Source of the DNA: a virus
Length of the DNA stretch: 64,000 bases
Reading direction: 5' to 3' (one strand)
Virus record (IMG/VR): IMGVR_UViG_3300017917_001112
Coordinates: 1 to 64,000 of that record
Below the pieces are notes generated by a model. It searched no databases, had not been told where the DNA came from, and saw only the letters and a list, made by a program, of their open reading frames with translations. The position numbers and the translations under genes were made by a program. Of the stretch, positions 354-31,102 are shown in pieces; the stretch's first letter is position 1, and each line of letters opens with the position of its first letter.

Positions 354-449
354 ATGGATGAAACAGAATTAAAACTTAGACAGATGTATCTTGATACTGC
401 GAAATCAATTGTGCAGTTTATTAAAGCAAAACATTTCGGGTATTGTTAA
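354..449 (+). CDS. small hypothetical protein (31 aa, MDETELKLRQMYLDTAKSIVQFIKAKHFGYC)
   Basis: read manually; follows a CTAAATA late-promoter-like motif at 343-349. Confidence 0.4.
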   Translation: MDETELKLRQMYLDTAKSIVQFIKAKHFGYC

Positions 450-454
450 GAATT

Positions 455-718
455 GTTGTAATCCCTTCAAAGAGAAGGTGTTCTGGACGGGAGTTCGATT
501 CTCCCCACCTCCACCAATTATCTTTTCCAAGATAAAAGAAGATAATTGATGGGGGTGACTAGGTTTCGACAGGGCAAGATATCAGAGACGGCAACACGGT
601 AGGCGATGACCGTAAATCAAGCAAATCAAAGTAAACGCAAACGATGAAGTTTACGCATTGGCAGCTTAATCGCTGACTAGGGTTTCGGTTGGTTTCCTCG
701 TAACAGAATAACCAACCA
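455..718 (+). ncRNA. ssrA: circularly permuted (two-piece) tmRNA, tag peptide ANDEVYALAA
   Basis: acceptor piece with T-arm GGAGTTCGATTCTCC and CACCTCCA-CCA ends at 516; hairpin spacer 517-550; coding piece starts GGGGGTGACTAGGTTTCGAC at 551; G3.U70 pair; tag ORF 637-669. Confidence 0.93.
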
Positions 719-719
719 T

Positions 720-727
720 TATAAATA
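720..727 (+). promoter_or_regulatory. T4-type late promoter TATAAATA
   Basis: exact consensus upstream of the 815 operon. Confidence 0.65.
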
Positions 728-814
728 AGTTTATCCACAGTAAATGGATCATGGTGATAGTAACCATGTAAAAAACTATCAACACTTACACACAACACAG
801 AAAGGAAGTAAACT

Positions 815-7456: not shown

Positions 7457-7485
7457 TTGACAAAATTAAAGAGTTAAGATATAAT
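7457..7485 (+). promoter_or_regulatory. sigma70-type promoter of the tRNA array
   Basis: TTGACA-17bp-TATAAT. Confidence 0.85.
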
Positions 7486-7523: not shown

Positions 7524-7599
7524 GCTCGGTTCGTCTATCGGTCTAGGACACTGCCCTTTCACGGCAGGAAGAGGGGTTCGATTCCCCTACCGAGTACCA
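7524..7599 (+). tRNA. tRNA-Glu(TTC)
   Basis: cloverleaf; anticodon arm CTGCC-CTTTCAC-GGCAG; CCA. Confidence 0.95.
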
Positions 7600-7600
7600 T

Positions 7601-7715
7601 TTATTTTGCTGATTGTAAGCGATGGGCTTGATCATGCCTGACTAACTATGACGATAAGATGTAAACTCGAGTAAAGCATATGAGTCATAGCATACAGTGC
7701 AGTCAGCAAAATCAA
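7601..7715 (+). ncRNA. unassigned structured RNA (long closing stem with internal hairpins)
   Basis: ATTTTGCTGATTGTA pairs with TGCAGTCAGCAAAAT; inner CTATGAC/GTCATAG and GGGC/GCCT. Confidence 0.5.
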
Positions 7716-7716
7716 T

Positions 7717-7754
7717 GGTAGTAGACTCGTCGGGAGACGCTCAGGCTACCACCA
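7717..7754 (+). ncRNA. CCA-ended tRNA-like minihelix
   Basis: GGTAGT...GCTACC-ACCA acceptor-like stem enclosing a small CGTC/GACG hairpin. Confidence 0.45.
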
Positions 7755-7760
7755 ATTTAT

Positions 7761-7834
7761 GCGGGATTAGTTTAATGGTAAAACGGCAGTCTTCCAAACT
7801 TCAGTCGTGAGTTCGATTCTCACATTCCGCTCCA
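7761..7834 (+). tRNA. tRNA-Gly(TCC)
   Basis: cloverleaf; loop CTTCCAA; TCCA end. Confidence 0.93.
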
Positions 7835-7841
7835 CTTATAT

Positions 7842-7934
7842 GGGTGTGTTGATGCTATGGCGTGTGCATCCTCGGACTGTAAATCCGATCCCTCTGGGTA
7901 AACATTGTTGGTTCGACTCCAACCACACCCACCA
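7842..7934 (+). tRNA. tRNA-Tyr(GTA), atypical extended D-arm
   Basis: TCGGA-CTGTAAA-TCCGA; long variable arm; ACCA. Confidence 0.9.
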
Positions 7935-7939
7935 TATAA

Positions 7940-8014
7940 GGTTCCAAAGTGTTCACGGACGCACGTTGGCTTGTCACGCCAAAAGAAGGGGATCGTTACC
8001 CCTTGGGACCGCCA
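7940..8014 (+). tRNA. tRNA-Asp(GTC)
   Basis: TTGGC-TTGTCAC-GCCAA; non-canonical T-loop ATCGTTA; GCCA. Confidence 0.9.
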
Positions 8015-8022
8015 AATACTAC

Positions 8023-8051
8023 TTGACAATTTTTAATGTTTAGTGTATAAT
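8023..8051 (+). promoter_or_regulatory. sigma70-type promoter inside the tRNA array
   Basis: TTGACA-17bp-TATAAT. Confidence 0.85.
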
Positions 8052-8075
8052 TGTTGTTTTTATTAGGAGAAAGAA

Positions 8076-8138
8076 ATGAAATTTATGAAGCGAAAGCGTA
8101 AGATGAAATGTCGAAAACGATTTGGGGGTATAACTTAG
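8076..8138 (+). CDS. Lys/Arg-rich micro-ORF (MKFMKRKRKMKCRKRFGGIT) running into tRNA-Lys
   Basis: strong AGGAG SD at 8065-8069 right after the promoter; stop lies inside the tRNA-Lys D-arm. Confidence 0.5.
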   Translation: MKFMKRKRKMKCRKRFGGIT

Positions 8139-8197
8139 TGGCAAAGTAGTAGGCTTTTAACCTATTAACCAGAGTTCGATTCTCTGTACCCCTACCA
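8124..8197 (+). tRNA. tRNA-Lys(TTT)
   Basis: GTAGG-CTTTTAA-CCTAT; ACCA. Confidence 0.93.
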
Positions 8198-8246
8198 ATC
8201 GCAATTATAAAAGCACACTAAATTAGTAGTGTATTTCTATAATTGA

Positions 8247-8322
8247 CGCAGAGTATGGAAGTGGTCATCCGTTCGGTCTCATAAGCCGAGAATCGCAGGT
8301 TCGAATCCTGCCTCTGCAACCA
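8247..8322 (+). tRNA. tRNA-fMet(CAT), initiator type
   Basis: C1:A72 mismatch; loop CTCATAA. Confidence 0.88.
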
Positions 8323-8329
8323 GTTTCGT

Positions 8330-8405
<76 letters not shown>

Positions 8406-8410
8406 GTTTT

Positions 8411-8466
8411 AGGATTCTTTCAGCAATTTAAAAACTTTCACTGTTAATGAAAAGAAAGCGAATCCT
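8411..8466 (+). ncRNA. CAGCAA-stem RNA 1 (Y-RNA-like; cargo is an Asn-type anticodon stem-loop)
   Basis: AGGATTC..TTCAGCAA...GAATCCT-GTT enclosing TTTCA-CTGTTAA-TGAAA. Confidence 0.75.
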
Positions 8467-8477
8467 GTTGTTTTATT

Positions 8478-8551
8478 GCCCTCATAGTTAAATGGTATAA
8501 CAGTTGCCTTGTAAGCATCAATTCGCAGTTCGATTCTGTGTGGGGGCACCA
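8478..8551 (+). tRNA. tRNA-Thr(TGT)
   Basis: loop CTTGTAA; ACCA. Confidence 0.92.
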
Positions 8552-8560
8552 AATTTTTAT

Positions 8561-8639
8561 CCGAGTGTAGGAAAGTCTGGTTTAATCCGTCTGCTTTGGG
8601 AGCAGAAGATCGCAGGTTCGAATCCTGCCACTCGGACCA
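8561..8639 (+). tRNA. tRNA-Pro(TGG)
   Basis: TCTGC-TTTGGGA-GCAGA; ACCA. Confidence 0.95.
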
Positions 8640-8646
8640 TCAATAT

Positions 8647-8720
8647 GGGGAATTAGTTAAATGGGATAACATCGGCTTTGCAAGCCGAGATTGAGAGTTC
8701 GATTCTCTCATTCTCCACCA
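8647..8720 (+). tRNA. tRNA-Ala(TGC)
   Basis: G3.U70; loop TTTGCAA; ACCA. Confidence 0.95.
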
Positions 8721-8726
8721 TGTTTT

Positions 8727-8843
8727 AGGATACTTACAGCAAATAAAAACTGCTCTTGAAAAGCAGAGGTTGTTGGTTCGAGTCCAACATTGTGTCTGAT
8801 GGCACGATTAGATCAATTGGTAGATCGCTAGAAAAAGTATCCT
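8727..8843 (+). ncRNA. CAGCAA-stem RNA 2 (YrlA-like circularly permuted tRNA cargo, TGA anticodon loop)
   Basis: AGGATACTT/AAGTATCCT closing stem; order is anticodon arm, variable, T-arm, loop-closed acceptor stem, D-arm. Confidence 0.85.
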
Positions 8844-8853
8844 GTTGTTTTTT

Positions 8854-8930
8854 GCCCCGATGACGGAATTGGTATACGTGCTTGCCTTAGAAGCAAGATT
8901 CTGAGAGTTCGAGTCTCTCTTGGGGCACCA
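8854..8930 (+). tRNA. tRNA-Leu(TAG), short variable loop
   Basis: CTTGC-CTTAGAA-GCAAG; ACCA. Confidence 0.92.
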
Positions 8931-8935
8931 TCTAT

Positions 8936-9025
8936 GGAGAGTTGGCAGAGTCTGGTTTATTGCACCTGTCTTGAAAACAGACGGATAGAAATGTCCCGTG
9001 AGTTCGAATCTCACACTCTCCGCCA
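8936..9025 (+). tRNA. tRNA-Ser(TGA)
   Basis: loop CTTGAAA; long variable arm; GCCA. Confidence 0.95.
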
Positions 9026-9030
9026 AATTA

Positions 9031-9105
9031 GCATCGTTAACTCAGTGGTAGAGTGCTTCCCTTACAAGGAAGAGGTCGGGAGTTCGACCCTCTCACGATG
9101 CACCA
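9031..9105 (+). tRNA. tRNA-Val(TAC)
   Basis: CTTCC-CTTACAA-GGAAG; ACCA. Confidence 0.95.
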
Positions 9106-9110
9106 AGTTT

Positions 9111-9210
9111 AGAATCGGTTCAGCAAAACATTTAACGTAGCTCATCGGTAGAGCAATTGCCTGCAACGCAATCAGAGTGGGTTCGATTCCCATCGATAAA
9201 AAACGATTCT
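9111..9210 (+). ncRNA. CAGCAA-stem RNA 3 (acceptor-less tRNA body, GCA anticodon)
   Basis: AGAATCG/CGATTCT closing stem; D-arm TAGCTCATCGGTAGAGC, ATTGC-CTGCAAC-GCAAT, T-arm GTGGG-TTCGATT-CCCAT; no acceptor stem or CCA. Confidence 0.8.
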
Positions 9211-9220
9211 GTTGATTAAT

Positions 9221-9296
9221 GCCCCATTGGTGAAATGGATGATCATACTGTGCTACGAACGCAGAGGTGGAGGTTCAATTCCTTCATGGGGTGCCA
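9221..9296 (+). tRNA. tRNA-Arg(ACG)
   Basis: loop CTACGAA; GCCA. Confidence 0.93.
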
Positions 9297-9304
9297 AACC
9301 ATTC

Positions 9305-9379
9305 AGCCGTGTAGCTCAGAGGAAGAGCAATCGCTTGATAAGCGATAGGTCGACATTTCGAAACTGTCCATGGCTACCA
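9305..9379 (+). tRNA. tRNA-Ile(GAT)
   Basis: ATCGC-TTGATAA-GCGAT; atypical T-arm GACAT-TTCGAAA-CTGTC; ACCA. Confidence 0.88.
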
Positions 9380-9384
9380 AATAT

Positions 9385-9458
9385 ATCTCGATAGTGTAAC
9401 GGCAGCATACCAGTCTCCAAAACTGTTGGTGGGGGTTCAAATCCCTCTCGGGATGCCA
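9385..9458 (+). tRNA. tRNA-Trp(CCA)
   Basis: loop CTCCAAA; GCCA. Confidence 0.92.
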
Positions 9459-9463
9459 TATAT

Positions 9464-9538
9464 GGTGATGTAGCACAGTGGTAGTGCAACTGCTTCATAC
9501 GCAGTAGGTCGTTGGCTCGAATCCAACCATCACCACCA
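9464..9538 (+). tRNA. tRNA-Met(CAT), probably elongator
   Basis: ACTGC-TTCATAC-GCAGT; T-loop CTCGAAT; ACCA. Confidence 0.85.
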
Positions 9539-9545
9539 AATCTGT

Positions 9546-9624
9546 TGGGGATTAGCCAAGTCTGGTCTAAGGCAGTGGTCTTTGAAGCCATCATTCACTG
9601 GTTCGAATCCAGTATCCCCTGCCA
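9546..9624 (+). tRNA. tRNA-Gln(TTG)
   Basis: loop CTTTGAA; unpaired 1:72; GCCA. Confidence 0.93.
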
Positions 9625-9631
9625 ATTCTAT

Positions 9632-9707
9632 GGTGTCTTTAGTGTAGAGGTTCGCACCCGACTCTGTGAAAGTCGTAGTATGGGATCGTTCCCCATAAGG
9701 CACCCCA
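9632..9707 (+). tRNA. tRNA-His(GTG)
   Basis: 8-bp acceptor with G-1; CGACT-CTGTGAA-AGTCG; T-loop ATCGTTC. Confidence 0.9.
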
Positions 9708-9716
9708 AACAATTTT

Positions 9717-9792
9717 GCTGCTTTAGCTGATGTGGTCATAGCAGGGGTCTGAAGAGCCTCGGAAAGTAGTTCGATTCTACTAGGCAGCACCA
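9717..9792 (+). tRNA. tRNA-Phe(GAA)
   Basis: loop CTGAAGA; ACCA. Confidence 0.92.
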
Positions 9793-9797
9793 AACAT

Positions 9798-9873
9798 GCG
9801 GAAGTAATTCAGTTGGTAGAATGTCTGCTTGCCAAGCAGAATGTCGCGAGTTCGAGTCTCGTCTTCCGCTCCA
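9798..9873 (+). tRNA. tRNA-Gly(GCC)
   Basis: TCTGC-TTGCCAA-GCAGA; TCCA. Confidence 0.95.
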
Positions 9874-9893
9874 GTCTTAGATCTTGTAGGGTA

Positions 9894-9922
9894 TTGACAT
9901 TTATTCGTTTTCGAGGTATAAT
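9894..9922 (+). promoter_or_regulatory. sigma70-type promoter
   Basis: TTGACA-17bp-TATAAT. Confidence 0.85.
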
Positions 9923-9942
9923 ATACTTTTAAGGAGAAATAA

Positions 9943-10104
9943 ATGAACGTCTATATTCTTTTTTCTAATAAAAATGTTATCGGTCTCGCTAAAGATGAAG
10001 CCGAAGCGAATCTTATGCTGTCTGAATATGAAATGGCTTTAGGTGCTGAAGACGCTGGTGATTTGTCTTTTATGGTTTGTGAAGTTAGCGAATATTGTGA
10101 TTAA
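9943..10104 (+). CDS. small acidic hypothetical protein (53 aa, MNVYILFSNK...)
   Basis: read manually; AAGGAG SD directly after the promoter. Confidence 0.7.
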   Translation: MNVYILFSNKNVIGLAKDEAEANLMLSEYEMALGAEDAGDLSFMVCEVSEYCD

Positions 10105-10123
10105 ATTTTAAGGAGATTGATTT

Positions 10124-10708
10124 ATGCCTAGTGTGTTTTTAGTGAGCGACACGCACTTCGGACACGCAGGTGTTTGTAAATTTTTGCGTGAGGATGGAAG
10201 TAAACTTCGACCATGGGACAATTCAGAAGAAATGGACGAAGACATGGTTAAGAGATGGAACGAAACAGTAAAACCAACTGACAAAGTTTACCATCTAGGT
10301 GATGTTGTTATTAATCGCAAAGCATTAAACATTATGCGTAGATTAAATGGTGATAAAGTTTTGATTCGTGGCAACCATGACATCTTTAAAGATGAAGATT
10401 ATCGTCAACACTTTAGAGAACTTCGTGCATATCATGTGATGAACGGAATGATTCTTTCACACATACCTATTCACGCAGATAGTCTTGGTCGTTTCGGTGT
10501 CAACATTCACGGACATCTACATTCTGGTAGAGTTATGAGACAACCTGAAGGTAGATACGGAATTCCAATAATTGATGCAAGATATCATTGCGTTTGTGTT
10601 GAACAAACAGACTTTCGTCCGATTTTATTTGAAGATGTTATTCAAAGAATTAAAGACGAGGGTGGGGTTATTGGTTTTAGAAATGGTAATGGTCCCTGTA
10701 TAGATTAG
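10124..10708 (+). CDS. calcineurin-like metallophosphoesterase
   Basis: SDTHFGH, HLGDV, RGNHD, LSHIP, IHGHLH motifs. Confidence 0.92.
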   Translation: MPSVFLVSDTHFGHAGVCKFLREDGSKLRPWDNSEEMDEDMVKRWNETVKPTDKVYHLGDVVINRKALNIMRRLNGDKVLIRGNHDIFKDEDYRQHFRELRAYHVMNGMILSHIPIHADSLGRFGVNIHGHLHSGRVMRQPEGRYGIPIIDARYHCVCVEQTDFRPILFEDVIQRIKDEGGVIGFRNGNGPCID

Positions 10709-10797
10709 GAGATTGGGCAGGATGGTAATGCAGCAGTTTGCTAAACTGTAGATCGTAGGAATGCGGTCAGTGGGTTCGACTCCCACAGTCTCCGCCA
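10708..10797 (+). tRNA. tRNA-Ser(GCT)
   Basis: loop TTGCTAA; long variable arm; GCCA. Confidence 0.95.
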
Positions 10798-10802
10798 TTT
10801 TT

Positions 10803-10879
10803 GTCGCCATAGTTCAGTTGGATAGAACAACTGCCTTCTAAGCAGTAGGTCGCAGGTTCGAGTCCTGCTGGCGACGCCA
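10803..10879 (+). tRNA. tRNA-Arg(TCT)
   Basis: ACTGC-CTTCTAA-GCAGT; GCCA. Confidence 0.95.
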
Positions 10880-10890
10880 TATATATTTTT

Positions 10891-10968
10891 GCCCCTGTGG
10901 ACAAATTGGTAAAGTCGTCTCTCTCAAAAGGAGAAGTTCTCTCAGTTCGAATCTGAGCAGGGGTACCA
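10891..10968 (+). tRNA. tRNA-Leu(CAA), short variable loop
   Basis: loop CTCAAAA; ACCA. Confidence 0.9.
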
Positions 10969-10973
10969 AATTT

Positions 10974-11048
10974 GGGCTGGTAGCTTAATGGTAAAGCAGC
11001 CGACTCATAATCGGTTGAGTGAGAGTTCAATTCTCTCCCAGCCCACCA
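10974..11048 (+). tRNA. tRNA(CAT), probably Ile2 (lysidine) type
   Basis: GCCGA-CTCATAA-TCGGT; GGGCTG acceptor; ACCA. Confidence 0.8.
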
Positions 11049-11062
11049 TTAATGGAGATAGT

Positions 11063-11596
11063 ATGAATCTAAACAATTTTGTAAAAGTTTATAATGTTGT
11101 GCCGAAAGATATATGTGAGTCGGTGATATTGTTATACGAGAATGATGAAGAGTGGAAAACACACAACTGGTATAACAATATTTCTGATGAAAAGAAAGCA
11201 CATCACACAAAGGAACTTGATGTCCTTTACAATAAAAATTTAGATGTTCTAAAACAATTTTTACAAAGTGCTTTACATAAATACTATGATGAGTTAAAAT
11301 TAAGTAACTTGGTAAGCAATCACAGTAATATAAGATTGAACAAGTATAAGACAGGAACTGTAATGTCAGAGCATTTTGATTTGATACGCAGAAATCCAAC
11401 AGATGGAATTCCTGTTCTTACATTTCTTGGCATACTAAATGACAATTTTAAAGGTGGACAATTTGTTTTAAACGGAGAGGTATTGAAATTAAAGCAAGGG
11501 GACATTATTATGTTTCCTTCTACGTTTCTATATCCGCATAGTGTAACAGAGGTAACAGAAGGAACAAGATATACATTTGTTGCTTGGGCATATTAA
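11063..11596 (+). CDS. 2OG-Fe(II) oxygenase
   Basis: HFD...LNDNFKGG...FPSTFLYPHSVTEVTEGTRY; start reassigned to MNLNNF (GGAG SD) because 10988 lies inside a tRNA. Confidence 0.88.
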   Translation: MNLNNFVKVYNVVPKDICESVILLYENDEEWKTHNWYNNISDEKKAHHTKELDVLYNKNLDVLKQFLQSALHKYYDELKLSNLVSNHSNIRLNKYKTGTVMSEHFDLIRRNPTDGIPVLTFLGILNDNFKGGQFVLNGEVLKLKQGDIIMFPSTFLYPHSVTEVTEGTRYTFVAWAY

Positions 11597-11597
11597 T

Positions 11598-11675
11598 GTT
11601 GGGGTGCCAGAGTGGTCTAATGGCGCAGTCTGCAAAACTGTCGATTCGTGGGTTCGAATCCCACCCTCAACTCCA
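11598..11675 (+). tRNA. tRNA-Cys(GCA)
   Basis: loop CTGCAAA; U73; TCCA. Confidence 0.93.
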
Positions 11676-11681
11676 AACAAT

Positions 11682-11758
11682 GCGGATGTGACGGAATAGG
11701 TATACGTATCGGACTTAAAATCCGAGTTTTGAGGGTTCGAGTCCCTCCATCCGTACCA
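11682..11758 (+). tRNA. tRNA-Leu(TAA), short variable loop
   Basis: TCGGA-CTTAAAA-TCCGA; ACCA. Confidence 0.92.
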
Positions 11759-11777
11759 GTTTAAATCGGAGGTTGAT

Positions 11778-12266
11778 ATGAGATATAGAGAAAAAATCAA
11801 TATTCAAGAAGTCAGAGATTTCGTTGAACAATGTGATCCAACAACAAAGATTTACATTGGTTGTGACTCTGAGAGATATAAAGTTGGCAAACAATGGTAT
11901 GCTGACTATATTCTTGCTGTTGTTGTTCATATCAATGGTAACAATGGATGTAAAATTTTTGGTGCGGTTCAGAAAGAAATGGACTTTGATCAAAAATACA
12001 ATCGTCCACGTATGCGTTTAATGAATGAAGTGTACAAGGTTGCGGAACTTTACTTAGAGCTTGCTCAAGAAATTCCGAATGATATCGAAGTTCACTTAGA
12101 CATTAATCCGAATGAAAACTATGGTTCTTCATGTGTAATAAACGAAGCAGTTGGTTACATTCGTGGAATGTGTAATGTTGTACCTTTGGTAAAACCGAAC
12201 GCATTCGCAGCATCTTATGCTGCAGATCGAATGAAACATGTTGTTGATTTTAGAAAAAGTGCTTGA
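11778..12266 (+). CDS. RNase H-like YkuK (DUF458) family protein
   Basis: IYIGCDS...RLMNEV...IEVHLDIN...KPNAFAASYAAD. Confidence 0.8.
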   Translation: MRYREKINIQEVRDFVEQCDPTTKIYIGCDSERYKVGKQWYADYILAVVVHINGNNGCKIFGAVQKEMDFDQKYNRPRMRLMNEVYKVAELYLELAQEIPNDIEVHLDINPNENYGSSCVINEAVGYIRGMCNVVPLVKPNAFAASYAADRMKHVVDFRKSA

Positions 12267-12291
12267 CATTTAAACATGTATCAAGTATAAT
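12263..12291 (+). promoter_or_regulatory. sigma70-type promoter for RNAs 4-5 and the Ro60-like gene
   Basis: TTGACA-17bp-TATAAT. Confidence 0.85.
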
Positions 12292-12311
12292 ATGATTTGT
12301 AAATTGAGAAA

Positions 12312-12529
12312 AGGATGGGTGCAGCAAGTATAAATTACTTAATGCCGAATGCCAGACAGAGGAGGACCACCGAAAGGTGTATTTTAAAACTGGCTAGACA
12401 GAAAAGTTGAAGTAAATCTGACGCTGGAAAGACAGCAAGATGATAGTATCCTATCAGTTTTCAGTGGGGCTGTCCGAAAGGAGACACTGGGGTTAGAATA
12501 AACCAAGTTAACATCAACCCAACCATCCT
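12312..12529 (+). ncRNA. CAGCAA-stem RNA 4 (218 nt, multi-hairpin cargo)
   Basis: AGGATGG..TGCAGCAA...CCATCCT-GTT; inner hairpins include CACC-GAAA-GGTG, GCTG-GAAAGA-CAGC, TGATAG/CTATCA, CAGTG/CACTG. Confidence 0.75.
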
Positions 12530-12553
12530 GTTATTTTTTGTTATAGGAGTTTT

Positions 12554-12668
12554 AGAATAGGTTCAGCAACCAAAATTACTAACAGCGAAAGCTGTATCAA
12601 GGGGTCGGGTTCGCCTGACGACCTGAGTTTCGAGTTCTCAGGTAAAACAAAAAGTAGAAAACTATTCT
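12554..12668 (+). ncRNA. CAGCAA-stem RNA 5 (three-hairpin cargo)
   Basis: AGAATAG..TTCAGCAA...CTATTCT-GTT; ACAGC-GAAA-GCTGT, GTCGGG-TTCG-CCTGAC, ACCTGAG/CTCAGGT. Confidence 0.75.
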
Positions 12669-12684
12669 GTTAAATGAGGTAATT

Positions 12685-14103
12685 ATGAACACTTTTGTTT
12701 CTGCCGTACAAAATCAATCTGCACGCACAACTAACGGCATGCGTGCCCGTAAATCTACTGCGTCTGCTTGCGTAGACTTGTTCTTCAAGATCGGCGCATC
12801 TCGTGGTAAAGATATCACGAAAGACTTCGTTGCTGCTTATGTTGAGAATCGCGAAGTAGCATTGCGTATTGCGCAGTGGGTTCGTGACGCACGTGGTGGC
12901 GCAGGTGAACGTGACTTGTTCCGTCAAATCCTGAAGTATCTTGACAAGCATCAACCTGAAGATGCTGCTCTTCTGTTGAACAAAGTTCCAGAGATCGGTC
13001 GTTGGGATGACATCTTTGTCGTAGAGAAAAACAAGCCAAAAGCATTTACTATGCTGGGTGATGCTCTGCGTGAACGTAATGGTCTTGCTGCTAAGTGGAC
13101 TCCACGTCAAGGTAAGTTGGCTGTTGAAATCCGTAACTTCTTTGGTATGTCTCCAAAGTTTTACCGTAAGTCTTTGGTCGAACTGACTAAAGTTGTTGAA
13201 ACTCAGATGTGCGCAAAAGACTGGGATAACATCAACTTCAGCCATGTGCCTTCTGTTGCGTCTGCACGCTACAAGAAAGCATTTTACCGTAACACTCAAG
13301 AGTACGCAAAGTACGTTGCGGAATTGGTGAAAGATCCAAAAGACCGCACTATGGATGTGAAGGTAAACGCTGGTGCAGTATATCCATACGATGTACTGAA
13401 GGGTGTTGTTGGTCACTATGTGACTAACTTCAACAAGACAGAACTTGACCTTGTTGAAAAACAATGGGAAGCACTCGAAAACTTTGTTGGTGACGCAAAC
13501 GTGTTGCCACTGGTTGACGTGTCTGGTTCTATGTCTGTGCCTGTTGGTAAGAACGCAAACCTTTCTTGCCTTACTGTTGCTGTATCTCTGGGTCTATACC
13601 TAGCAGATAAAAACACAGGTAAGTTCAAGGACACGTTCTTGACTTTCTCTGGCTCACCAGAGTTGCTGCATCTGAAAGGTACAATCCTGCAGAAAGTGCA
13701 ACAAATGGTTAAGTCTAACTGGGATATGAACACTAACTTGGTGAAGGCGATGGATAAAATCCTGAAGACTGCCAAGGACGGTAACGTGCCTCAGGAAGAA
13801 ATGCCAGAAATGCTTCTGATTCTGTCAGACATGCAGTTCGATCAATGCGCAAAGTTTGACGACTCTGCGATGAAAATGATTGAACGTAAGTTCAACGAAG
13901 CTGGTTACGATCTGCCAAAGATCGTGTTCTGGAATCTGAATGCGCATGACAATGTGCCTGTGAAGTATGACACACGTGGGGTTGCTTTGGTTTCTGGATT
14001 CAGCCCAGCAATCATGAAAGCAGTTCTTGCTGGTGATACTGAACAGTTTACACCAGAAGCAATTATGCTGAAGGCAGTTATGGTGGATCGTTACGCCATC
14101 TAA
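12685..14103 (+). CDS. Ro60/TROVE-like RNA-binding protein with C-terminal vWA domain (DUF2828-type)
   Basis: RDARGGAGER, GRWDD, AAKWTPR, VPSVA, YPYD; MIDAS DVSGSM; LSDMQFD; IVFWNL; VSGFSP. Confidence 0.85.
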   Translation: MNTFVSAVQNQSARTTNGMRARKSTASACVDLFFKIGASRGKDITKDFVAAYVENREVALRIAQWVRDARGGAGERDLFRQILKYLDKHQPEDAALLLNKVPEIGRWDDIFVVEKNKPKAFTMLGDALRERNGLAAKWTPRQGKLAVEIRNFFGMSPKFYRKSLVELTKVVETQMCAKDWDNINFSHVPSVASARYKKAFYRNTQEYAKYVAELVKDPKDRTMDVKVNAGAVYPYDVLKGVVGHYVTNFNKTELDLVEKQWEALENFVGDANVLPLVDVSGSMSVPVGKNANLSCLTVAVSLGLYLADKNTGKFKDTFLTFSGSPELLHLKGTILQKVQQMVKSNWDMNTNLVKAMDKILKTAKDGNVPQEEMPEMLLILSDMQFDQCAKFDDSAMKMIERKFNEAGYDLPKIVFWNLNAHDNVPVKYDTRGVALVSGFSPAIMKAVLAGDTEQFTPEAIMLKAVMVDRYAI

Positions 14104-14116
14104 ATAAAGTAACAGG

Positions 14117-14140
14117 TGGGGCACTTGTGCCCCATTTTTC
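14117..14140 (+). terminator. intrinsic terminator
   Basis: TGGGGCAC-tt-GTGCCCCA followed by TTTTT. Confidence 0.8.
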
Positions 14141-14152
14141 ATTGGAGGTAGG

Positions 14153-14965
14153 ATGACGGAAAGAACAGTAAAAGAAATATTTGATGAGCAGGGTTATTAT
14201 GGACCTGTTCGTTTTTTAGCAACACATAAAATTTATGAATATCAAACAGAAGTATATCGTTTGATGCGTGAGATGGATTGGATGAATACCGATTATCGTT
14301 GTAAAGCAAATGTTCTTTTCCCATTTATTAATGAGATATCAAAACAAATTGTAATTGTTGATTATGTAAAACAAATTCTTGGACCTAACTTTTCTTGTTG
14401 GGACACACTCATTTGGGTTAAAGATCCAGAGAGCGATAATTATGTTTCATGGCATCAAGATGCTACATATTGGAACTTCTTGCCAAAAGAAAGAGGATTG
14501 ACTGTTTGGGTAACTCTATCTGGGGCAACAAAAGAAATGGGTTGTCTTCAGTATGTTCCTGGATCACATAAACATGGGCAGAGAATGCATTCAGATATTA
14601 AGAATGATGAAAATTTACTTATGCGTGGACAAACAATTGATGAACATGATAAAGAAAATGTTGTTCATGTTGAGGCGAGACCAGGAACATTTATAATGCA
14701 TAATCCATTTATTGTTCATGGCTCAGATGCAAATCGTTCTCAAACACCAAGAGTTGCTATGGGTTTTATTTATGTTGCTACTGACGCAAAACCGATTGCT
14801 ACATTTTCTCCAGAATCAACTGTGATGGTTTCTGGTGTTGATGAATATAACTATATGTTACATGATCCAGAGCCAACAGGAAAATGGGAAGAGGATATTA
14901 AAGTTTGGAAACAAGCATATGATAGGCAGCACGACAATTACTACAAGATGGAACAAGTTTTCTGA
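14153..14965 (+). CDS. phytanoyl-CoA dioxygenase (PhyH) family 2OG-Fe(II) enzyme
   Basis: WHQDATYW, GCLQYVPGSH, HGSDANRSQTPR. Confidence 0.9.
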   Translation: MTERTVKEIFDEQGYYGPVRFLATHKIYEYQTEVYRLMREMDWMNTDYRCKANVLFPFINEISKQIVIVDYVKQILGPNFSCWDTLIWVKDPESDNYVSWHQDATYWNFLPKERGLTVWVTLSGATKEMGCLQYVPGSHKHGQRMHSDIKNDENLLMRGQTIDEHDKENVVHVEARPGTFIMHNPFIVHGSDANRSQTPRVAMGFIYVATDAKPIATFSPESTVMVSGVDEYNYMLHDPEPTGKWEEDIKVWKQAYDRQHDNYYKMEQVF

Positions 14966-15446
14966 TTGGCGTGATGCTGATATAAGTAAAACTAATGTTC
15001 TCAAACACATAAAATTACCAGCTACTTGTTTTCTCTCTGCGAATGCTTGGGGATTAAAAGGAAAACTTCCAGGAGGTAAACACTCTTGGATTGCTGAGTA
15101 TAATGGTTATACTTGGAAAACATTTGAGATCACCGATCGTGAAACAATAGAAGTTCAGCAAGCAAATATTCTCTTCTGCGAAAGAGACAATTATACTGAG
15201 AGACAGCTGATAGTTTCCGATCGTGATCCATCTACTCTCTGGTTTGGTAATCAACCAAGATTAGATGGTATCTTCAATTGGAAAGGTATAGAAGAATACT
15301 ATCCTCTCAACACAAACATCAATCTAGCGTTCAATAATTGTAACACATATTTGAGTTACATTGCTTGGCGTTATCATTTTAAATTGAAACTTCCATACAT
15401 CGGTTTCAAAGACAAGTCATTTTGGGAAAAGCATGAAATTAGATGA
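14835..15446 (+). CDS. hypothetical protein (true start probably further downstream)
   Basis: fills the gap between neighbours; HSWIA and NNCNTY could be a permuted papain-like His/Cys pair. Confidence 0.55.
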   Translation: MLMNITICYMIQSQQENGKRILKFGNKHMIGSTTITTRWNKFSDWRDADISKTNVLKHIKLPATCFLSANAWGLKGKLPGGKHSWIAEYNGYTWKTFEITDRETIEVQQANILFCERDNYTERQLIVSDRDPSTLWFGNQPRLDGIFNWKGIEEYYPLNTNINLAFNNCNTYLSYIAWRYHFKLKLPYIGFKDKSFWEKHEIR

Positions 15447-16614
15447 GTTGAATTTTCAATACTCTAAAGACAATCATTATCGTTGGGGTTGGGGCGATGA
15501 TGATACTGAATGGTTTAATGAACCAAATTACGAACAACCATTCAAGATGACGATTGGTAGATGCACAAGAAAGCCAAAGTCATTTCGCGAAGAATGCATT
15601 CTAGCAACAGAACATTTATGTACTCAATATGATAAGCCAATCTATGTTGGTTTGTCTGGTGGTCTTGATTCTCAGATTGTGTGTCTAACTCTACTAGAAC
15701 TTAAGATGCCATTTATACCATGTATTATTGTTATGGAAGATAATTATAATTTACACGATGTTCTAAACGCAAAAGAATTTTGTGAGAAATACAACTTAAA
15801 GTATAAAGTATTTAACATTAACATGGGCGAGTTTTATTCCAAATACTGCCCAGAGATTGTTAAGAAATATAAAATCACAAATGCAAGAACAACAATGCAG
15901 TTGTGGCTTGAACAGTTTACTAAAGATGGAATCTTTATTATGGCTGGTGGTGATATGCAACTTACCAGATATAAACTTGGAGAACCATCATATGATACCA
16001 CAGATGGATTGCTAATTAATCCTCTATCATCAACAGCCCCAATGACAAAATGCACATGGGGTTCTCATCCAACACCAATTTTACAACATCTTATTTCGCA
16101 AGGGGGAATGGGAACAACAAAGTATTTTATGTATAGTCCCGAACTAATTGCTTCTGTTGTTCTTAGTAAAGAAGTTGAATCATTCGTAAACATACAAGAC
16201 GTATTATACAGCACAGCATTAGTGCCACGTTCGAAGTTTTGGTTGTTGTATAACTACATTGCCAAATCGCAATTATATGCGAACAATTGGCCAGAGTTAA
16301 TTCTTCGACCAAAATATCATGGTTTCGAATTCGTCGAAAAGAATCTTGAATATTCGAAACTAAAGAAAGAAGCGATCGAAGAATATAGTAAAGAGAACGA
16401 CAAGAAAGGTATTTACATAGAGTACACAGAATTGAAGGAGTATTTTTCTTCGGTTGGACCACAGAAGATATGGTATAGTAATCCGTTGGTCAAACAAACT
16501 TCTTCGATCAAGGGTTTTATTGAGAGCATATCCCTCAGGGAACAAACGAAGAATGATTTGTTCGAAGATGAGGATTTATTGGATGAATATGAGGGTGGGG
16601 GTATTGACATTTAA
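15433..16614 (+). CDS. PP-loop (adenine nucleotide alpha-hydrolase-like) protein
   Basis: VGLSGGLDSQ motif; ends LRPKYHGFE. Confidence 0.65.
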   Translation: MKLDELNFQYSKDNHYRWGWGDDDTEWFNEPNYEQPFKMTIGRCTRKPKSFREECILATEHLCTQYDKPIYVGLSGGLDSQIVCLTLLELKMPFIPCIIVMEDNYNLHDVLNAKEFCEKYNLKYKVFNINMGEFYSKYCPEIVKKYKITNARTTMQLWLEQFTKDGIFIMAGGDMQLTRYKLGEPSYDTTDGLLINPLSSTAPMTKCTWGSHPTPILQHLISQGGMGTTKYFMYSPELIASVVLSKEVESFVNIQDVLYSTALVPRSKFWLLYNYIAKSQLYANNWPELILRPKYHGFEFVEKNLEYSKLKKEAIEEYSKENDKKGIYIEYTELKEYFSSVGPQKIWYSNPLVKQTSSIKGFIESISLREQTKNDLFEDEDLLDEYEGGGIDI

Positions 16615-29810: not shown

Positions 29811-31102
29811 TGAGTGATATTGAACAGATTAAATCTGCTGGTGATTATCAATTAGTTGATGTGAAAATTGGTTCCGCTAGAGGAACAATTTTTGATGTAT
29901 TTAATTTCGTGGTTGATATTAACATATATGAAGACATGTTTTCTCCAACTATGTCTGGTAACATCACATTAAATGATGCTCAAGATCTTATCAATTTAAT
30001 GCCAATGATTGGAGAAGAAAAACTTTTAATCACATTTAAAACTCCATCTATCGATGAGAAAGATGGTTTATATGAACAAGAGTTTTACATTTATAAAATG
30101 ACGGATAGAGAATACACAGCTGAGAGAGCTGTTCGCTATAAATTACATTTTATTTCATTTGAAACTGTTCGCGATTTAAATTCAAAAATAAGCAAAGGGT
30201 TTGCTGGAACAATTAGTACAGTTGTTGAACAAATTCTTACACAAGAATTGAGAACTACTAAAAAACTTAATATTGAGAAAACAAAAAACACAACAACATA
30301 TGTTTCTAATTTTTGGACACCATTTACCAATATTAGTTTTTTGTCGAAAAGATCTATATCGCAAGAAACTGAATCAGCGAATTTTATATTTTTCGAATCA
30401 AACAGAGGATTTAATTATGCGAGCATTGATACATTATTAACTCAGAATGCAAAAACCAAATACATTTATGATAACAACTCAAGAGATCCAAGTGGTGATG
30501 GTGGTGGTTCAGTAAGAGATATTGCAGAAACTTTGTCACGCATCAATTCTGTAAAAATTAATACTGGGTTTGATTATATGAATAGAATTCAATCTGGTAT
30601 GTATAAAAGTAGATTGATTACACATGAGATTGTTACAAAAACATATAATGTTCAAACATTAACATATGAAGATGAGTTTAAAAAACACAATCACCTGAAC
30701 AAATATCCTTTATCTACAGTAAATTTACCATCAAAAACATTTGCTTTCTTAGACGTTCAACCAAGAGCATTAGAAAATTTTAGTAATTTTAAATCAGATA
30801 AGATGAAATCTTGGTATTTAAAACATATTATGCAGATGTCTGAAGCGAATGCATATTATATGGATTTAACTGTTCCAGGAAGAAGCGATTTGTGTGTTGG
30901 TGATATTGTAGATGTTTATATGTATAGACCCACACCATTTAATCAGAAAGATCAAGAAGAACAATTACTTGATAAAACATTTTCTGGAAGATACATGATT
31001 GCTTCATTGTGTCATAACTTAAATAGAGAAAAGCATGAAATACATATGTCAGTAATTAAAGATTCCTTAATTATTGATTTACAGAAAGAAGGCACAGATT
31101 AA
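29810..31102 (+). CDS. baseplate hub protein (gp27-like)
   Basis: NIYEDMFSP.MSG, IGEEKL, FFES..GFN, VPG...VGD, SGRYMI; between gp53 and gp5. Confidence 0.7.
   Translation: MSDIEQIKSAGDYQLVDVKIGSARGTIFDVFNFVVDINIYEDMFSPTMSGNITLNDAQDLINLMPMIGEEKLLITFKTPSIDEKDGLYEQEFYIYKMTDREYTAERAVRYKLHFISFETVRDLNSKISKGFAGTISTVVEQILTQELRTTKKLNIEKTKNTTTYVSNFWTPFTNISFLSKRSISQETESANFIFFESNRGFNYASIDTLLTQNAKTKYIYDNNSRDPSGDGGGSVRDIAETLSRINSVKINTGFDYMNRIQSGMYKSRLITHEIVTKTYNVQTLTYEDEFKKHNHLNKYPLSTVNLPSKTFAFLDVQPRALENFSNFKSDKMKSWYLKHIMQMSEANAYYMDLTVPGRSDLCVGDIVDVYMYRPTPFNQKDQEEQLLDKTFSGRYMIASLCHNLNREKHEIHMSVIKDSLIIDLQKEGTD

What the first reader, a model, noticed from the sequence alone, without database searches (positions are those of the whole stretch)
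8411..14103. Candidate new Ro60/Y-RNA-like system: a DUF2828-type TROVE-vWA protein plus five RNAs sharing a CAGCAA 'handle' with interchangeable cargo
Seen: five elements (8411-8466, 8727-8843, 9111-9210, 12312-12529, 12554-12668) share AG[G/A]ATnnn-TNCAGCAA...nnAT[C/T]CT-GTT. Their 7-9 bp closing stems co-vary (AGGATTC/GAATCCT, AGGATACTT/AAGTATCCT, AGAATCG/CGATTCT, AGGATGG/CCATCCT, AGAATAG/CTATTCT), while CAGCAA is invariant and the interiors are unrelated. Two sit between a sigma70 promoter and the TROVE-like gene; three are interleaved with tRNAs. Known: bacterial Ro60 (Rsr) binds a conserved end-to-end stem of adjacent Y RNAs (Yrn/YrlA), which carry tRNA-mimic effector domains. Inference: this divergent Ro60-like family has its own RNA class with a different handle motif, and one protein is loaded with several guide, decoy or tether RNAs.
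Basis: partly seen in the sequence, partly recalled or inferred. Interest (0 to 1): 0.95.

Follow-up and report, generated by a model that had tools for sequence, protein, structure and literature searches.

The report
Phage Ro60-like protein with partner RNAs
A large freshwater phage encodes a ring-shaped Ro60-like protein together with five small RNAs that share one "handle" and carry tRNA-like parts; the same pairing occurs in very distant phages, and the handle matches the unexplained Class I RNAs of social amoebae, one of which also has this protein.

Summary
All five elements sit at the stated coordinates, and they are the only such elements in the 165-kb phage genome. Each has a 7-9 bp terminal stem (AG...CU), a 3-nt linker, CAGCAA and a 3' GUU tail.

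The gene at 12685-14103 is a DUF2828+DUF7788 protein. Its predicted fold matches Ro60 over the full length, but its sequence does not match TROVE.

- **Relatives:** 80 related viral loci hold 220 same-strand elements, against 2 in each control. Stem positions co-vary.
- **Distant phages:** a covariance model built on this clade finds the RNA beside the gene in distant phages of six host groups. It finds none in five tRNA-rich phages that lack the gene.
- **Cargo:** the short RNAs carry anticodon-stem-loop mimics. The mid-size RNAs carry YrlA-like permuted tRNA mimics.
- **Rfam:** no family reaches its gathering score. The nearest are Dictyostelium Class I RNA and YrlA.
- **Amoeba link:** Class I RNAs share every handle feature, and the dictyostelid Tieghemostelium lacteum encodes a homologue that is 34% identical.

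Binding and function are untested. This scan found the same protein-RNA pair before on other phage DNA. I found no description of the RNA family in the papers I could search. I rate it a new variant of the Ro60-Y RNA kind, of high interest.

The parts
8411..8469 (+). E1: 56-nt handle RNA. It has a 7-bp stem AGGAUUC/GAAUCCU, linker UUU, CAGCAA and a GUU tail. The cargo is a 5-bp hairpin with the anticodon-like loop CUGUUAA (GUU, Asn-like).
   Evidence: R1 71 bits; RF01414 33.4 bits, below the gathering score of 41.5
8727..8846 (+). E2: 117-nt handle RNA with a 9-bp stem. The cargo is an anticodon-like hairpin (loop CUUGAAA), a T-arm, a capped acceptor-like hairpin and a D-arm, i.e. a permuted tRNA mimic of the YrlA type.
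   Evidence: YrlA 31.2 bits, below the gathering score of 69; fold z -3.9; R1 45.7 bits
9111..9213 (+). E3: 100-nt handle RNA whose cargo is a whole tRNA-Cys(GCA)-like cloverleaf (9131-9201). It is a second copy beside the tRNA-Cys at 11598-11675.
   Evidence: R1 34.4 bits
12263..12291 (+). Perfect sigma-70 consensus promoter (TTGACA, 17 nt, TATAAT) driving E4, E5 and the gene.
12312..12532 (+). E4: 218-nt handle RNA with a multi-hairpin cargo that has no recognisable tRNA part.
   Evidence: z -3.0; orthologue in L001 5606-5823
12554..12671 (+). E5: 115-nt handle RNA. The cargo is three hairpins: a GNRA loop, a UUCG loop and a T-loop-like 9-nt loop. It ends 16 nt before the start codon, and the GAGG ribosome-binding site lies at 12676-12679.
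   Evidence: z -3.3; R1 38.5 bits
12685..14103 (+). Gene for a 472-aa DUF2828+DUF7788 protein (PHROG 850). The predicted fold is Ro60: a helical ring plus a vWA domain with MIDAS residues D278, S280 and S282.
14117..14139 (+). GC-rich hairpin followed by TTTTT, the likely terminator of the E4-E5-gene unit.
   Evidence: read; the scan lists the hairpin on the - strand
7524..11758 (+). tRNA array (28 tRNA calls) that hosts E1-E3. Perfect sigma-70 promoters lie at 7457, 8023 and 9894.

Best explanation
The window encodes a Ro60-like ribonucleoprotein system of a family that has not been studied as such.

Shown:
- The 472-aa DUF2828+DUF7788 protein has the Ro60 fold.
- Five same-strand RNA genes share a handle: a terminal stem joining the 5' and 3' ends, a 3-nt linker, unpaired C-N-G-C-A-W and a GUU tail.
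- This RNA family travels with this gene family across phages of six bacterial host groups.
- The variable cargo mimics parts of tRNA.

Inferred:
- The RNAs are cut out of the tRNA-array transcript (E1-E3) and out of the gene's own leader (E4, E5).
- The ring protein binds the handle, as Ro60 binds the terminal stem and 5'-strand motif of Y RNAs, and so shields the RNA ends.
- The tRNA-like cargo then acts towards enzymes that recognise tRNA. It could serve as a decoy or sponge for host anticodon nucleases and other tRNA-directed defences. It could instead tether repair or decay enzymes to damaged tRNA, as Y RNA tethers PNPase to Ro60.
- E5 ends 16 nt before the start codon, so binding to the leader copies may also feed back on the protein's own synthesis.

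My odds: about 0.6-0.7 that the RNAs are bound partners of the protein, and about 0.35 that the role is decoy or tether in conflicts over tRNA.
For: - **Fold:** the AlphaFold2 model has pLDDT 89.7. The 12 best PDB matches are all Ro60/Rsr/phiLo Ro60 over the full length, with E 3e-10 to 3e-8 and TM 0.50-0.64. The MIDAS residues are invariant.
- **Association in relatives:** 80 loci give 220 forward elements, against 2 reverse-complement and 2 reversed controls. 206 lie upstream of the gene and 2 downstream, and 65 of 71 loci have one ending within 500 nt of the start.
- **Reverse test:** I scanned IMG/VR with the 5' half of the handle alone. 90 of 97 matches have the 7-bp closing arm plus GT, where I estimate about 3% by chance. 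The gene is on at least 44 of 77 contigs, most of them fragments, and always on the same strand.
- **Covariation:** 5 of 7 stem pairs change on both sides.
- **Distant phages:** by direct scan, elements lie in the same locus and on the same strand as the gene in 9 of 9 phages (hosts Mycobacterium, Listeria, Staphylococcus, Enterococcus, Fusobacterium, Campylobacter, E. coli, Vibrio, Synechococcus), directly beside it in most and in the tRNA array in Vibrio. Model R1 gives 18 hits with E<1, all on the gene's strand.
- **Negative control:** R1 gives no hit below E 0.5 in 1.04 Mb of five tRNA-rich phages that lack the gene.
- **Cargo:** 54 of 75 short RNAs have a hairpin with the loop C-U-NNN-A-A, against a mean of 3.7 in shuffles. 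39 of 60 mid-size RNAs have a T-arm motif. E2 folds as a permuted tRNA.
Against:
- Bas63 gp130 protects T7 from Ppl when expressed alone, without the phage's RNAs. At least one activity therefore does not need them.
- The protein matches Ro60 only by fold. Profile-to-sequence E-values are 0.3-0.8, and Pfam TROVE is not hit.
- The stem counts come from elements that were selected for pairing.
- In Dictyostelium the only proven direct binder of a Class I RNA is an RRM protein, Rnp1A (PMC7919456).
- The decoy or tether role rests only on the shape of the cargo and on gene neighbourhood.
Confidence: 0.6

Rival explanations
1. The elements are real RNAs, but they work with another protein, either a host factor or a phage RRM-type or La-type protein. 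They sit beside the DUF2828 gene only because both serve the same pathway of tRNA damage and repair.
For: In Dictyostelium the direct binder shown for a Class I RNA is the RRM protein Rnp1A (PMC7919456). Bas63 gp130 acts against Ppl without its RNAs.
Against: The RNA and the gene stay together across host phyla while all other neighbours change. This includes phages where the Rfam scan found no tRNA in the fetched stretch (Faith1, Fusobacterium phage) or only one (Staphylococcus phage). The fold is that of a protein family whose members bind exactly this RNA layout: a terminal stem with a 5'-strand motif (PMC4201824).
Confidence: 0.15
2. The elements are cis-acting transcript features: processing, stability or insulation signals of the tRNA operon, and a regulatory leader of the gene. 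They are not stand-alone RNAs.
For: E1-E3 lie between tRNAs. E4 and E5 lie between a promoter and the start codon, and E5 ends 16 nt before the ATG. The flanks are U-rich.
Against: Five tRNA-rich phages without the gene have none. In Faith1, the Staphylococcus phage and wV8 the elements lie downstream of the gene, not in its leader. An unpaired motif kept across phyla, together with cargo that mimics tRNA parts, is not what a cleavage site needs. A leader role can coexist with the main explanation.
Confidence: 0.15
3. The elements are small mobile DNA (MITE-like inverted repeats, or tRNA-derived repeats) that spread within tRNA arrays.
For: Short inverted repeats flank variable inserts, there are several copies per genome, and some cargos derive from tRNA.
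Against: The arms co-vary to keep pairing instead of keeping one sequence. All copies are on one strand: 220 against 2, and 166 against 0. The asymmetric unpaired motif and the GUU tail are conserved. I saw no target-site duplications or transposase.
Confidence: 0.03

Closest known systems
Bacterial Ro60 (Rsr) with the Y RNAs YrlA/YrlB and Yrn1 (Rfam RF02553; Chen et al. 2014, PMC4201824)
   Same: Both have a ring-plus-vWA protein fold. Both have one or more small RNA genes within a few kb on the same strand. In both, a terminal stem joins the RNA ends and a conserved 5'-strand motif sits beside it. Both have a cargo that is a permuted tRNA mimic with a T-arm, a capped acceptor and a D-arm (E2).
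   Different: The protein is a different sequence family (DUF2828+DUF7788, not Pfam TROVE). The handle motif is C-N-G-C-A-W next to the stem, not GNCGAAN0-1G. YrlA scores stay at 38 bits or less against a gathering score of 69. There are up to six RNAs per locus, and many are only 50-66 nt with a bare anticodon-arm mimic.
Thermus phage phiLo Ro60 with Yrl1/Yrl2 (PMC12135203; PDB 9KOP, 9L5Y)
   Same: It is a phage-encoded Ro60-fold protein with partner RNA genes directly upstream of the gene. The structures are among the top fold matches.
   Different: phiLo Ro60 is a canonical TROVE protein. Its RNAs carry CGAA in an internal bulge. Binding to the RNAs and to host PNPase is shown by experiment, whereas nothing is shown here.
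Class I RNAs of Dictyostelia (Rfam RF01414; Kjellin et al. 2021, PMC7919456)
   Same: The layout and the conserved letters are the same: an (A)AG start, a 6-7 bp stem of variable sequence joining the ends, a U-containing linker, CAGCAA, an A/U-rich stretch, a variable interior and a CUGU end. The size (42-65 nt) matches the short phage class (49-66 nt). The dictyostelid T. lacteum, which has Class I RNAs, also has a DUF2828+DUF7788 protein.
   Different: The phage RNAs stay below the family's gathering score: the best is 33.4 against 41.5, and only 1 of about 17 elements was hit in another scan. Class I genes have their own DUSE promoter and are dispersed, and none lies within 10 kb of the T. 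lacteum gene. Their proven binder is Rnp1A. Their cargo is not reported to be tRNA-like.
Bas63 (Felix-O1-type phage) gp130, a counter of the Ppl defence (PhageMaP preprint 10.1101/2024.10.10.617714)
   Same: It is a Ro60-like protein directly upstream of a tRNA array, like gp47 of the Felixounavirus wV8. wV8 gp47 is 38% identical to the window's protein and is followed by four handle RNAs.
   Different: I did not fetch the Bas63 record itself. The preprint only guesses that some 'tRNA' genes are Y RNAs and describes no RNA family. Whether the window's protein counters any defence is unknown.

Membership tests
Ro60 / TROVE proteins (Pfam PF05731) | Ring of helical repeats joined to a vWA domain with a MIDAS site (fold) | tested here: met
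   The model has pLDDT 89.7. The 12 best PDB matches are all Ro60, full length, with E down to 3e-10. D278, S280, S282, T350 and D382 are invariant in 45 sequences.
Ro60 / TROVE proteins (Pfam PF05731) | Significant sequence match to the TROVE profile or to Ro60 sequences | tested here: not met
   Pfam lists only DUF7788, DUF2828 and a weak VWA_2 match, even at E up to 10. phmmer and a profile against PDB give Ro60 at E 0.2-0.8, in the vWA part only.
Ro60 / TROVE proteins (Pfam PF05731) | Binds Y RNA or misfolded RNA | not testable with these tools
   This needs RIP or a gel shift.
DUF2828 + DUF7788 (PHROG 850 'RNA-binding protein') | Profile matches above the curated cut-offs | tested here: met
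   PF25043 scores 167 bits and PF11443 scores 81 bits. phrog_850 gives E 6e-138. There are 6256 clusters at E<=1e-3 and 711 cultured-phage records.
YrlA Y RNA (Rfam RF02553) | Score at or above the gathering score of 69 bits | tested here: not met
   E2 scores 31.2 bits, and the best relative scores 37.7 bits. Nothing reaches the gathering score in the window or in 8 distant loci.
YrlA Y RNA (Rfam RF02553) | Ro60-binding motif GNCGAAN0-1G near the 5' end | tested here: not met
   The conserved motif is C-N-G-C-A-W at positions 11-16. The defining motif is taken from PMC4201824.
YrlA Y RNA (Rfam RF02553) | tRNA-like domain (T-arm, capped acceptor, D-arm) | tested here: met
   E2 folds this way. 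A T-arm motif is present in 39 of 60 mid-size relatives. It is absent from the short class and from most of the long class.
Dictyostelid Class I RNA (Rfam RF01414) | Score at or above the gathering score of 41.5 bits | tested here: not met
   E1 scores 33.4, E2 scores 20.0, and one relative scores 32.5.
Dictyostelid Class I RNA (Rfam RF01414) | Short stem joining the ends, with conserved (A)AG start and CUGU end | tested here: met
   The layout is AG + 5 variable pairs ... CU + GU(U). The defining features are taken from PMC7919456 and its preprint.
Dictyostelid Class I RNA (Rfam RF01414) | 11-nt motif CCUUACAGCAA next to the 5' arm (near-invariant T3, C6, C9, A10, A11) | tested here: inconclusive
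   CAGCAA is present in 83% of elements chosen without the motif, with C1, G3, C4 and A5 near-invariant. The linker is one nucleotide shorter and has a conserved U. The CCUUA part is kept only in some elements (E2: CUUACAGCAA).
Dictyostelid Class I RNA (Rfam RF01414) | DUSE promoter about 60 nt upstream; dictyostelid genome | tested here: not met
   These are phage genes inside sigma-70-driven operons.

The most novel reading that the evidence does not exclude
The Class I RNAs of dictyostelid social amoebae are abundant, developmentally regulated and about 600 million years old. They have been reported as unique to that group and have no known mechanism. In this reading they are the Y-RNA-like partners of the amoebal DUF2828+DUF7788 Ro60-like protein, and phages, amoebae and probably giant viruses share one ancient RNP module with a common RNA handle. 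That would give Class I RNAs a protein partner and a testable function. It would also make the phage system a tractable model for them.
Probability: 0.45. Interest if true: 0.92.

Novelty: new variant of a known kind. Interest (0 to 1): 0.85.

Why it matters
Ro60-Y RNA particles are known from animals, some bacteria and a few phages. This finding points to a second, much larger branch. Its protein family has thousands of clusters and occurs in more than 700 cultured phages, including Felix O1, P100 and mycobacteriophages used in the laboratory and in biocontrol. That branch has its own RNA handle and a set of exchangeable tRNA-mimic cargos that genome annotation currently misses or mislabels as tRNAs.

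The finding offers a concrete hypothesis for how a reported counter-defence protein (Bas63 gp130) might work. It also bears on why phages interleave odd RNAs with their tRNA genes. Finally, it links a 20-year-old orphan RNA class of Dictyostelium to a candidate protein partner that can be tested directly.

Tried and rejected
**Searches that found nothing**
- Rfam at gathering thresholds finds only tRNA and tmRNA, both on the window and on 8 distant loci. A first gathering scan of 11 loci was swamped by tRNA rows and told me nothing.
- RF01414 at relaxed thresholds hits only 'UUCUUUCAGCAA'-type elements and never reaches its gathering score. I therefore do not file the RNAs as Class I members.
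- A megablast of the region against cultured phages matches only tRNA pieces.
- Model R1 and Rfam find no handle RNA within 10 kb of the T. lacteum gene, of a chytrid gene, or of two giant-virus-like metagenomic contigs.

**Explanations ruled out**
- Association with tRNA arrays as such, by the five gene-less tRNA-rich phages.
- A mobile-element reading, by strand bias and covariation.

**Sources not available**
- The T. lacteum scaffold is not held for whole-record searches, so the phage model could not be run on real Class I genes.
- No D. discoideum orthologue appeared in the one search that could have shown it, but that search was weak.
- The identity of DDB_G0281243 could not be looked up.
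- Avesson et al. 2011 and the supplements of Chen et al. 2014 are not held.

**Not used**
- Complex prediction, because it cannot model RNA.

Full report
**The observation.** The window is the first 64 kb of a 165,256-bp viral record with direct terminal repeats. It is a T4-like phage: it has a gp32-type ssDNA-binding protein and baseplate and tail proteins. It also carries a permuted tmRNA and 28 tRNA calls.

Each starts with AG and has a 7-9 bp stem closed by a complementary arm ending in CU. CAGCAA sits at positions 11-16, and GUU follows the 3' arm. A scan of the whole genome for 'AG + 7-bp stem + GT' gives 38 chance-level pairs on both strands. Exactly five of them carry C-N-G-C-A-N in register, and they are the reported five.

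Four perfect TTGACA-17-TATAAT promoters lie on the same strand. One of them (12263-12291) precedes E4, E5 and the gene. A GC hairpin plus TTTTT follows the gene.

**The protein.** ORF 12685-14103 matches Pfam DUF7788 (4e-49), DUF2828 (8e-23) and PHROG 850 'RNA-binding protein'. Pfam TROVE is not matched, and Ro60 sequences reach only E 0.2-0.8.

An AlphaFold2 model built from 45 diverse homologues has pLDDT 89.7 and pTM 0.89. Its 12 best PDB matches are all Ro60: Xenopus, human, Deinococcus Rsr and Thermus phage phiLo. They align over the full length with E 3e-10 to 3e-8 and TM 0.50-0.64. Plain vWA domains follow only at E>2e-3. The MIDAS residues are invariant. The protein is therefore a Ro60-fold protein of a separate sequence family.

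The family is very large. It has 6256 clusters at 50% identity and 711 cultured-phage records. These include Felix-O1-like, Listeria P100-like, mycobacteriophage ('Ro-like RNA binding protein'), Staphylococcus, Campylobacter, Vibrio, Enterococcus and Synechococcus phages.

**Is the RNA family real, and does it follow the gene?**
- *Relatives.* In 80 related viral loci (protein identity 65-94%), a scan for AG-stem, CAGCAA, closing arm and CUGU finds 220 elements on the gene's strand. The reverse complement gives 2 and the reversed sequence gives 2. 206 lie upstream of the gene and 2 downstream. 65 of 71 loci have one ending within 500 nt of the start codon.
- *Consensus.* The consensus of 191 unique copies is UUUU | AGGAUAG | GUU | CAGCAA | seven G-free A/U-rich positions ... 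A-rich | CUAUCCU | GUUGUUUU. Five of the seven stem pairs change on both sides while staying paired. That count is circular, because the copies were selected for pairing.
- *First non-circular test.* I scanned IMG/VR with the 5' half only (TTTTAGGATNNNTTCAGCAA). Of 97 matches, 90 have the 7-bp closing arm plus GT, where I estimate about 3% by chance. At least 44 of 77 contigs, most of them small fragments, carry the gene, and it is always on the same strand.
- *Second non-circular test.* I selected on UU-AG, a 7-bp Watson-Crick stem and GUU, without using the motif. This gives 166 forward and 0 reverse-complement elements. The hexamer is CAGCAA in 138; the rest are CCGCAA, CAGCAT or CTGCAA.
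- *Distant phages.* In nine phages whose proteins are only 27-49% identical to the window's, the same layout lies in the same locus and on the same strand as the gene. In most it is directly beside the gene; in the Vibrio phage the copies lie in the upstream tRNA array. The first two letters vary by lineage (AG, UG or AA). The stem, the U/A linker, CAGCAA and the 3' G remain.
- *Covariance model.* Model R1, built only from this clade's short elements, gives 18 hits with E<1 in 242 kb. All are on the gene's strand and all lie at these places.
- *Negative control.* Five tRNA-rich phages without the gene (T5, T4, RaK2, LucasX, phiPsa300; 1.04 Mb) have no hit below E 0.5.

The RNA follows the gene, not tRNA arrays.

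**The cargo.** The relatives fall into size classes of about 49-66, 79-133 and 142-263 nt, plus a few longer calls.
- *Short class.* Of 75 short RNAs, 54 contain a hairpin of at least 4 bp with a 7-nt loop C32-U33-NNN-A37-A38. Shuffles give a mean of 3.7 and a maximum of 8. The 'anticodons' are mostly UGU, UUU, GUU, GGA, UGA and UCU. E1 carries the loop CUGUUAA, the same loop as the tRNA-Asn gene just upstream of it.
- *Mid-size class.* Of 60 mid-size RNAs, 39 carry a T-arm motif. E2 folds into an anticodon-like arm, a T-arm, a capped acceptor-like hairpin and a D-arm. This is the permuted tRNA mimic known from YrlA.
- *Window elements E3-E5.* E3 wraps a whole tRNA-Cys-like cloverleaf. E5 has three hairpins, one of them T-loop-like. 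E4 (218 nt) has no recognisable tRNA part.
- *tRNA calls.* Only 4 of 191 elements contain something that ARAGORN calls a tRNA.

**Known families.** No Rfam family reaches its gathering score on any handle RNA. YrlA is approached only through the tRNA-like cargo (38 bits or less against 69). Its Ro60-binding motif GNCGAAN0-1G, and the CGAA of phiLo Yrl1/2, are different from the handle here.

The other near match was unexpected. Rfam RF01414, the Class I RNA of Dictyostelium, scores 33.4 bits on E1, 20 bits on E2 and 32.5 bits on one relative, against a gathering score of 41.5.

The papers on Class I RNAs describe a stem of about 6 bp joining the ends, a conserved (A)AG start, a CUGU end and an 11-nt motif CCUUACAGCAA beside the 5' arm, in which C6, C9, A10 and A11 are near-invariant. 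They also describe a variable remainder and a length of 42-65 nt, and they report the class as unique to Dictyostelia (PMC7919456 and its preprint). Feature by feature this is the phage handle. By score the phage RNAs are not members.

**The amoeba side.** A profile search for longer homologues returned a protein of the amoebozoan Cavostelium apophysatum. Using it as a query returned DLAC_02580 (KYR00564.1) of Tieghemostelium (Dictyostelium) lacteum, 504 aa, with both DUF2828 and DUF7788.
- It is 34% identical to the window's protein over nearly the full length (E 3e-72). By eye it keeps about 30 of the 33 positions that are invariant in phages.
- It lies without introns in a 1.22-Mb scaffold among ordinary eukaryotic genes.
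- D. lacteum is one of the species in which Class I RNAs were confirmed by northern blot.
- Homologues also occur in Nematostelium, Flabellula, a chytrid, an ascomycete and plants. Two long metagenomic contigs that carry the gene look like giant viruses to me.
- In a quick unrooted tree the phage proteins form one clade (support 100). T. lacteum groups with other Amoebozoa (support 96). This does not suggest a recent transfer from phage.

Three points weigh against the link. No Class I-like RNA lies within 10 kb of the eukaryotic genes. No D. discoideum orthologue appeared, although that search was weak. The proven binder of Class I RNA is the RRM protein Rnp1A.

The same pull-down also recovered DDB_G0281243, a protein of unknown function. 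I could not check what it is.

**Mechanism.** I commit to a Ro60-like RNP.
- *RNA release.* The RNAs are released from the tRNA-array transcript and from the gene's leader.
- *Binding.* The ring binds the handle and shields the RNA ends.
- *Cargo action.* The tRNA-part cargo engages tRNA-directed enzymes. It acts either as a decoy for host anticodon nucleases or as a tether for repair or decay enzymes.

Four things point this way:
- the shape of the cargo;
- the constant company of tRNA arrays;
- RtcB and RNA ligase genes near the gene in P100;
- published results on relatives: a Felix-O1-type homologue, Bas63 gp130, counters the Ppl defence, and phiLo Ro60 with its Y-like RNAs captures host PNPase.

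Against it, gp130 works without its RNAs when moved to T7, and nothing has been measured in this phage.

**Verdict.** The finding is real. This scan had already reached the same reading on other phage genomes (eight earlier notes). I reached the Class I resemblance before reading those notes. From the notes I took only the lead to the PhageMaP preprint, which I then read.

Full-text searches for the family name, for Class I RNA together with Ro60 or phage, and for the gene names found no description of this RNA family or of the amoeba link.

Noticed in passing
window 407-760 (+); L081 3737-4137; L089 4398-4748: The phage carries a permuted (two-piece type) tmRNA with tag ANDEVYALAA. Synechococcus phage BUCT-ZZ01 has a permuted tmRNA and an Enterococcus phage has a standard tmRNA, each within a few kb of its DUF2828 gene.
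   Followed up: no
window 7457-7485, 8023-8051, 9894-9922, 12263-12291 (+): Four perfect 12-of-12 sigma-70 consensus promoters (TTGACA, 17 nt, TATAAT) lie on one strand within 5 kb. They divide the tRNA/RNA region into separate transcription units.
   Followed up: partly
window 9131-9201 (+): The tRNA-Cys(GCA) called by ARAGORN and Rfam is the cargo of handle RNA E3, and a second tRNA-Cys(GCA) lies at 11598-11675. Some annotated phage 'tRNAs' may therefore be parts of Y-like RNAs.
   Followed up: partly
window 10124-10708, 10988-11596, 11778-12266, 14153-14965, 15433-16614 (+): Protein genes are interleaved with the RNA genes: a metallophosphatase, a 2OG-Fe(II) oxygenase, an RNaseH-like PF04308 protein, a PhyH-type dioxygenase and a PP-loop ATPase. 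This set could act on RNA or nucleotides.
   Followed up: no
L083 (Listeria phage P100) 10120-16227: Genes annotated as tRNA splicing ligase (RtcB), RNA ligase, phosphohydrolase and phosphoesterase lie just downstream of the P100 DUF2828 gene. This is an RNA-repair neighbourhood.
   Followed up: no
L211 and L213 (JGI metagenome contigs of 116 kb and 217 kb): DUF2828+DUF7788 genes sit among glutamine synthetase, protein kinase, Skp1, histone deacetylase, SNF2 and Bax-inhibitor genes. The contigs look like giant viruses or small eukaryotes. No handle RNA was detected beside the genes.
   Followed up: partly
G023 (IMG/VR contig behind L121) 30202-30555 and 31548-32561: The DUF2828 gene is in two pieces about 1 kb apart on the same strand. 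An inserted element such as an intron or a homing endonuclease is possible.
   Followed up: no
L210 (Logan contig from run ERR3252994, 1578 nt): A contig barely longer than the T. lacteum DUF2828 coding sequence carries the whole gene. This would fit a transcript assembly, but the library type was not checked.
   Followed up: no
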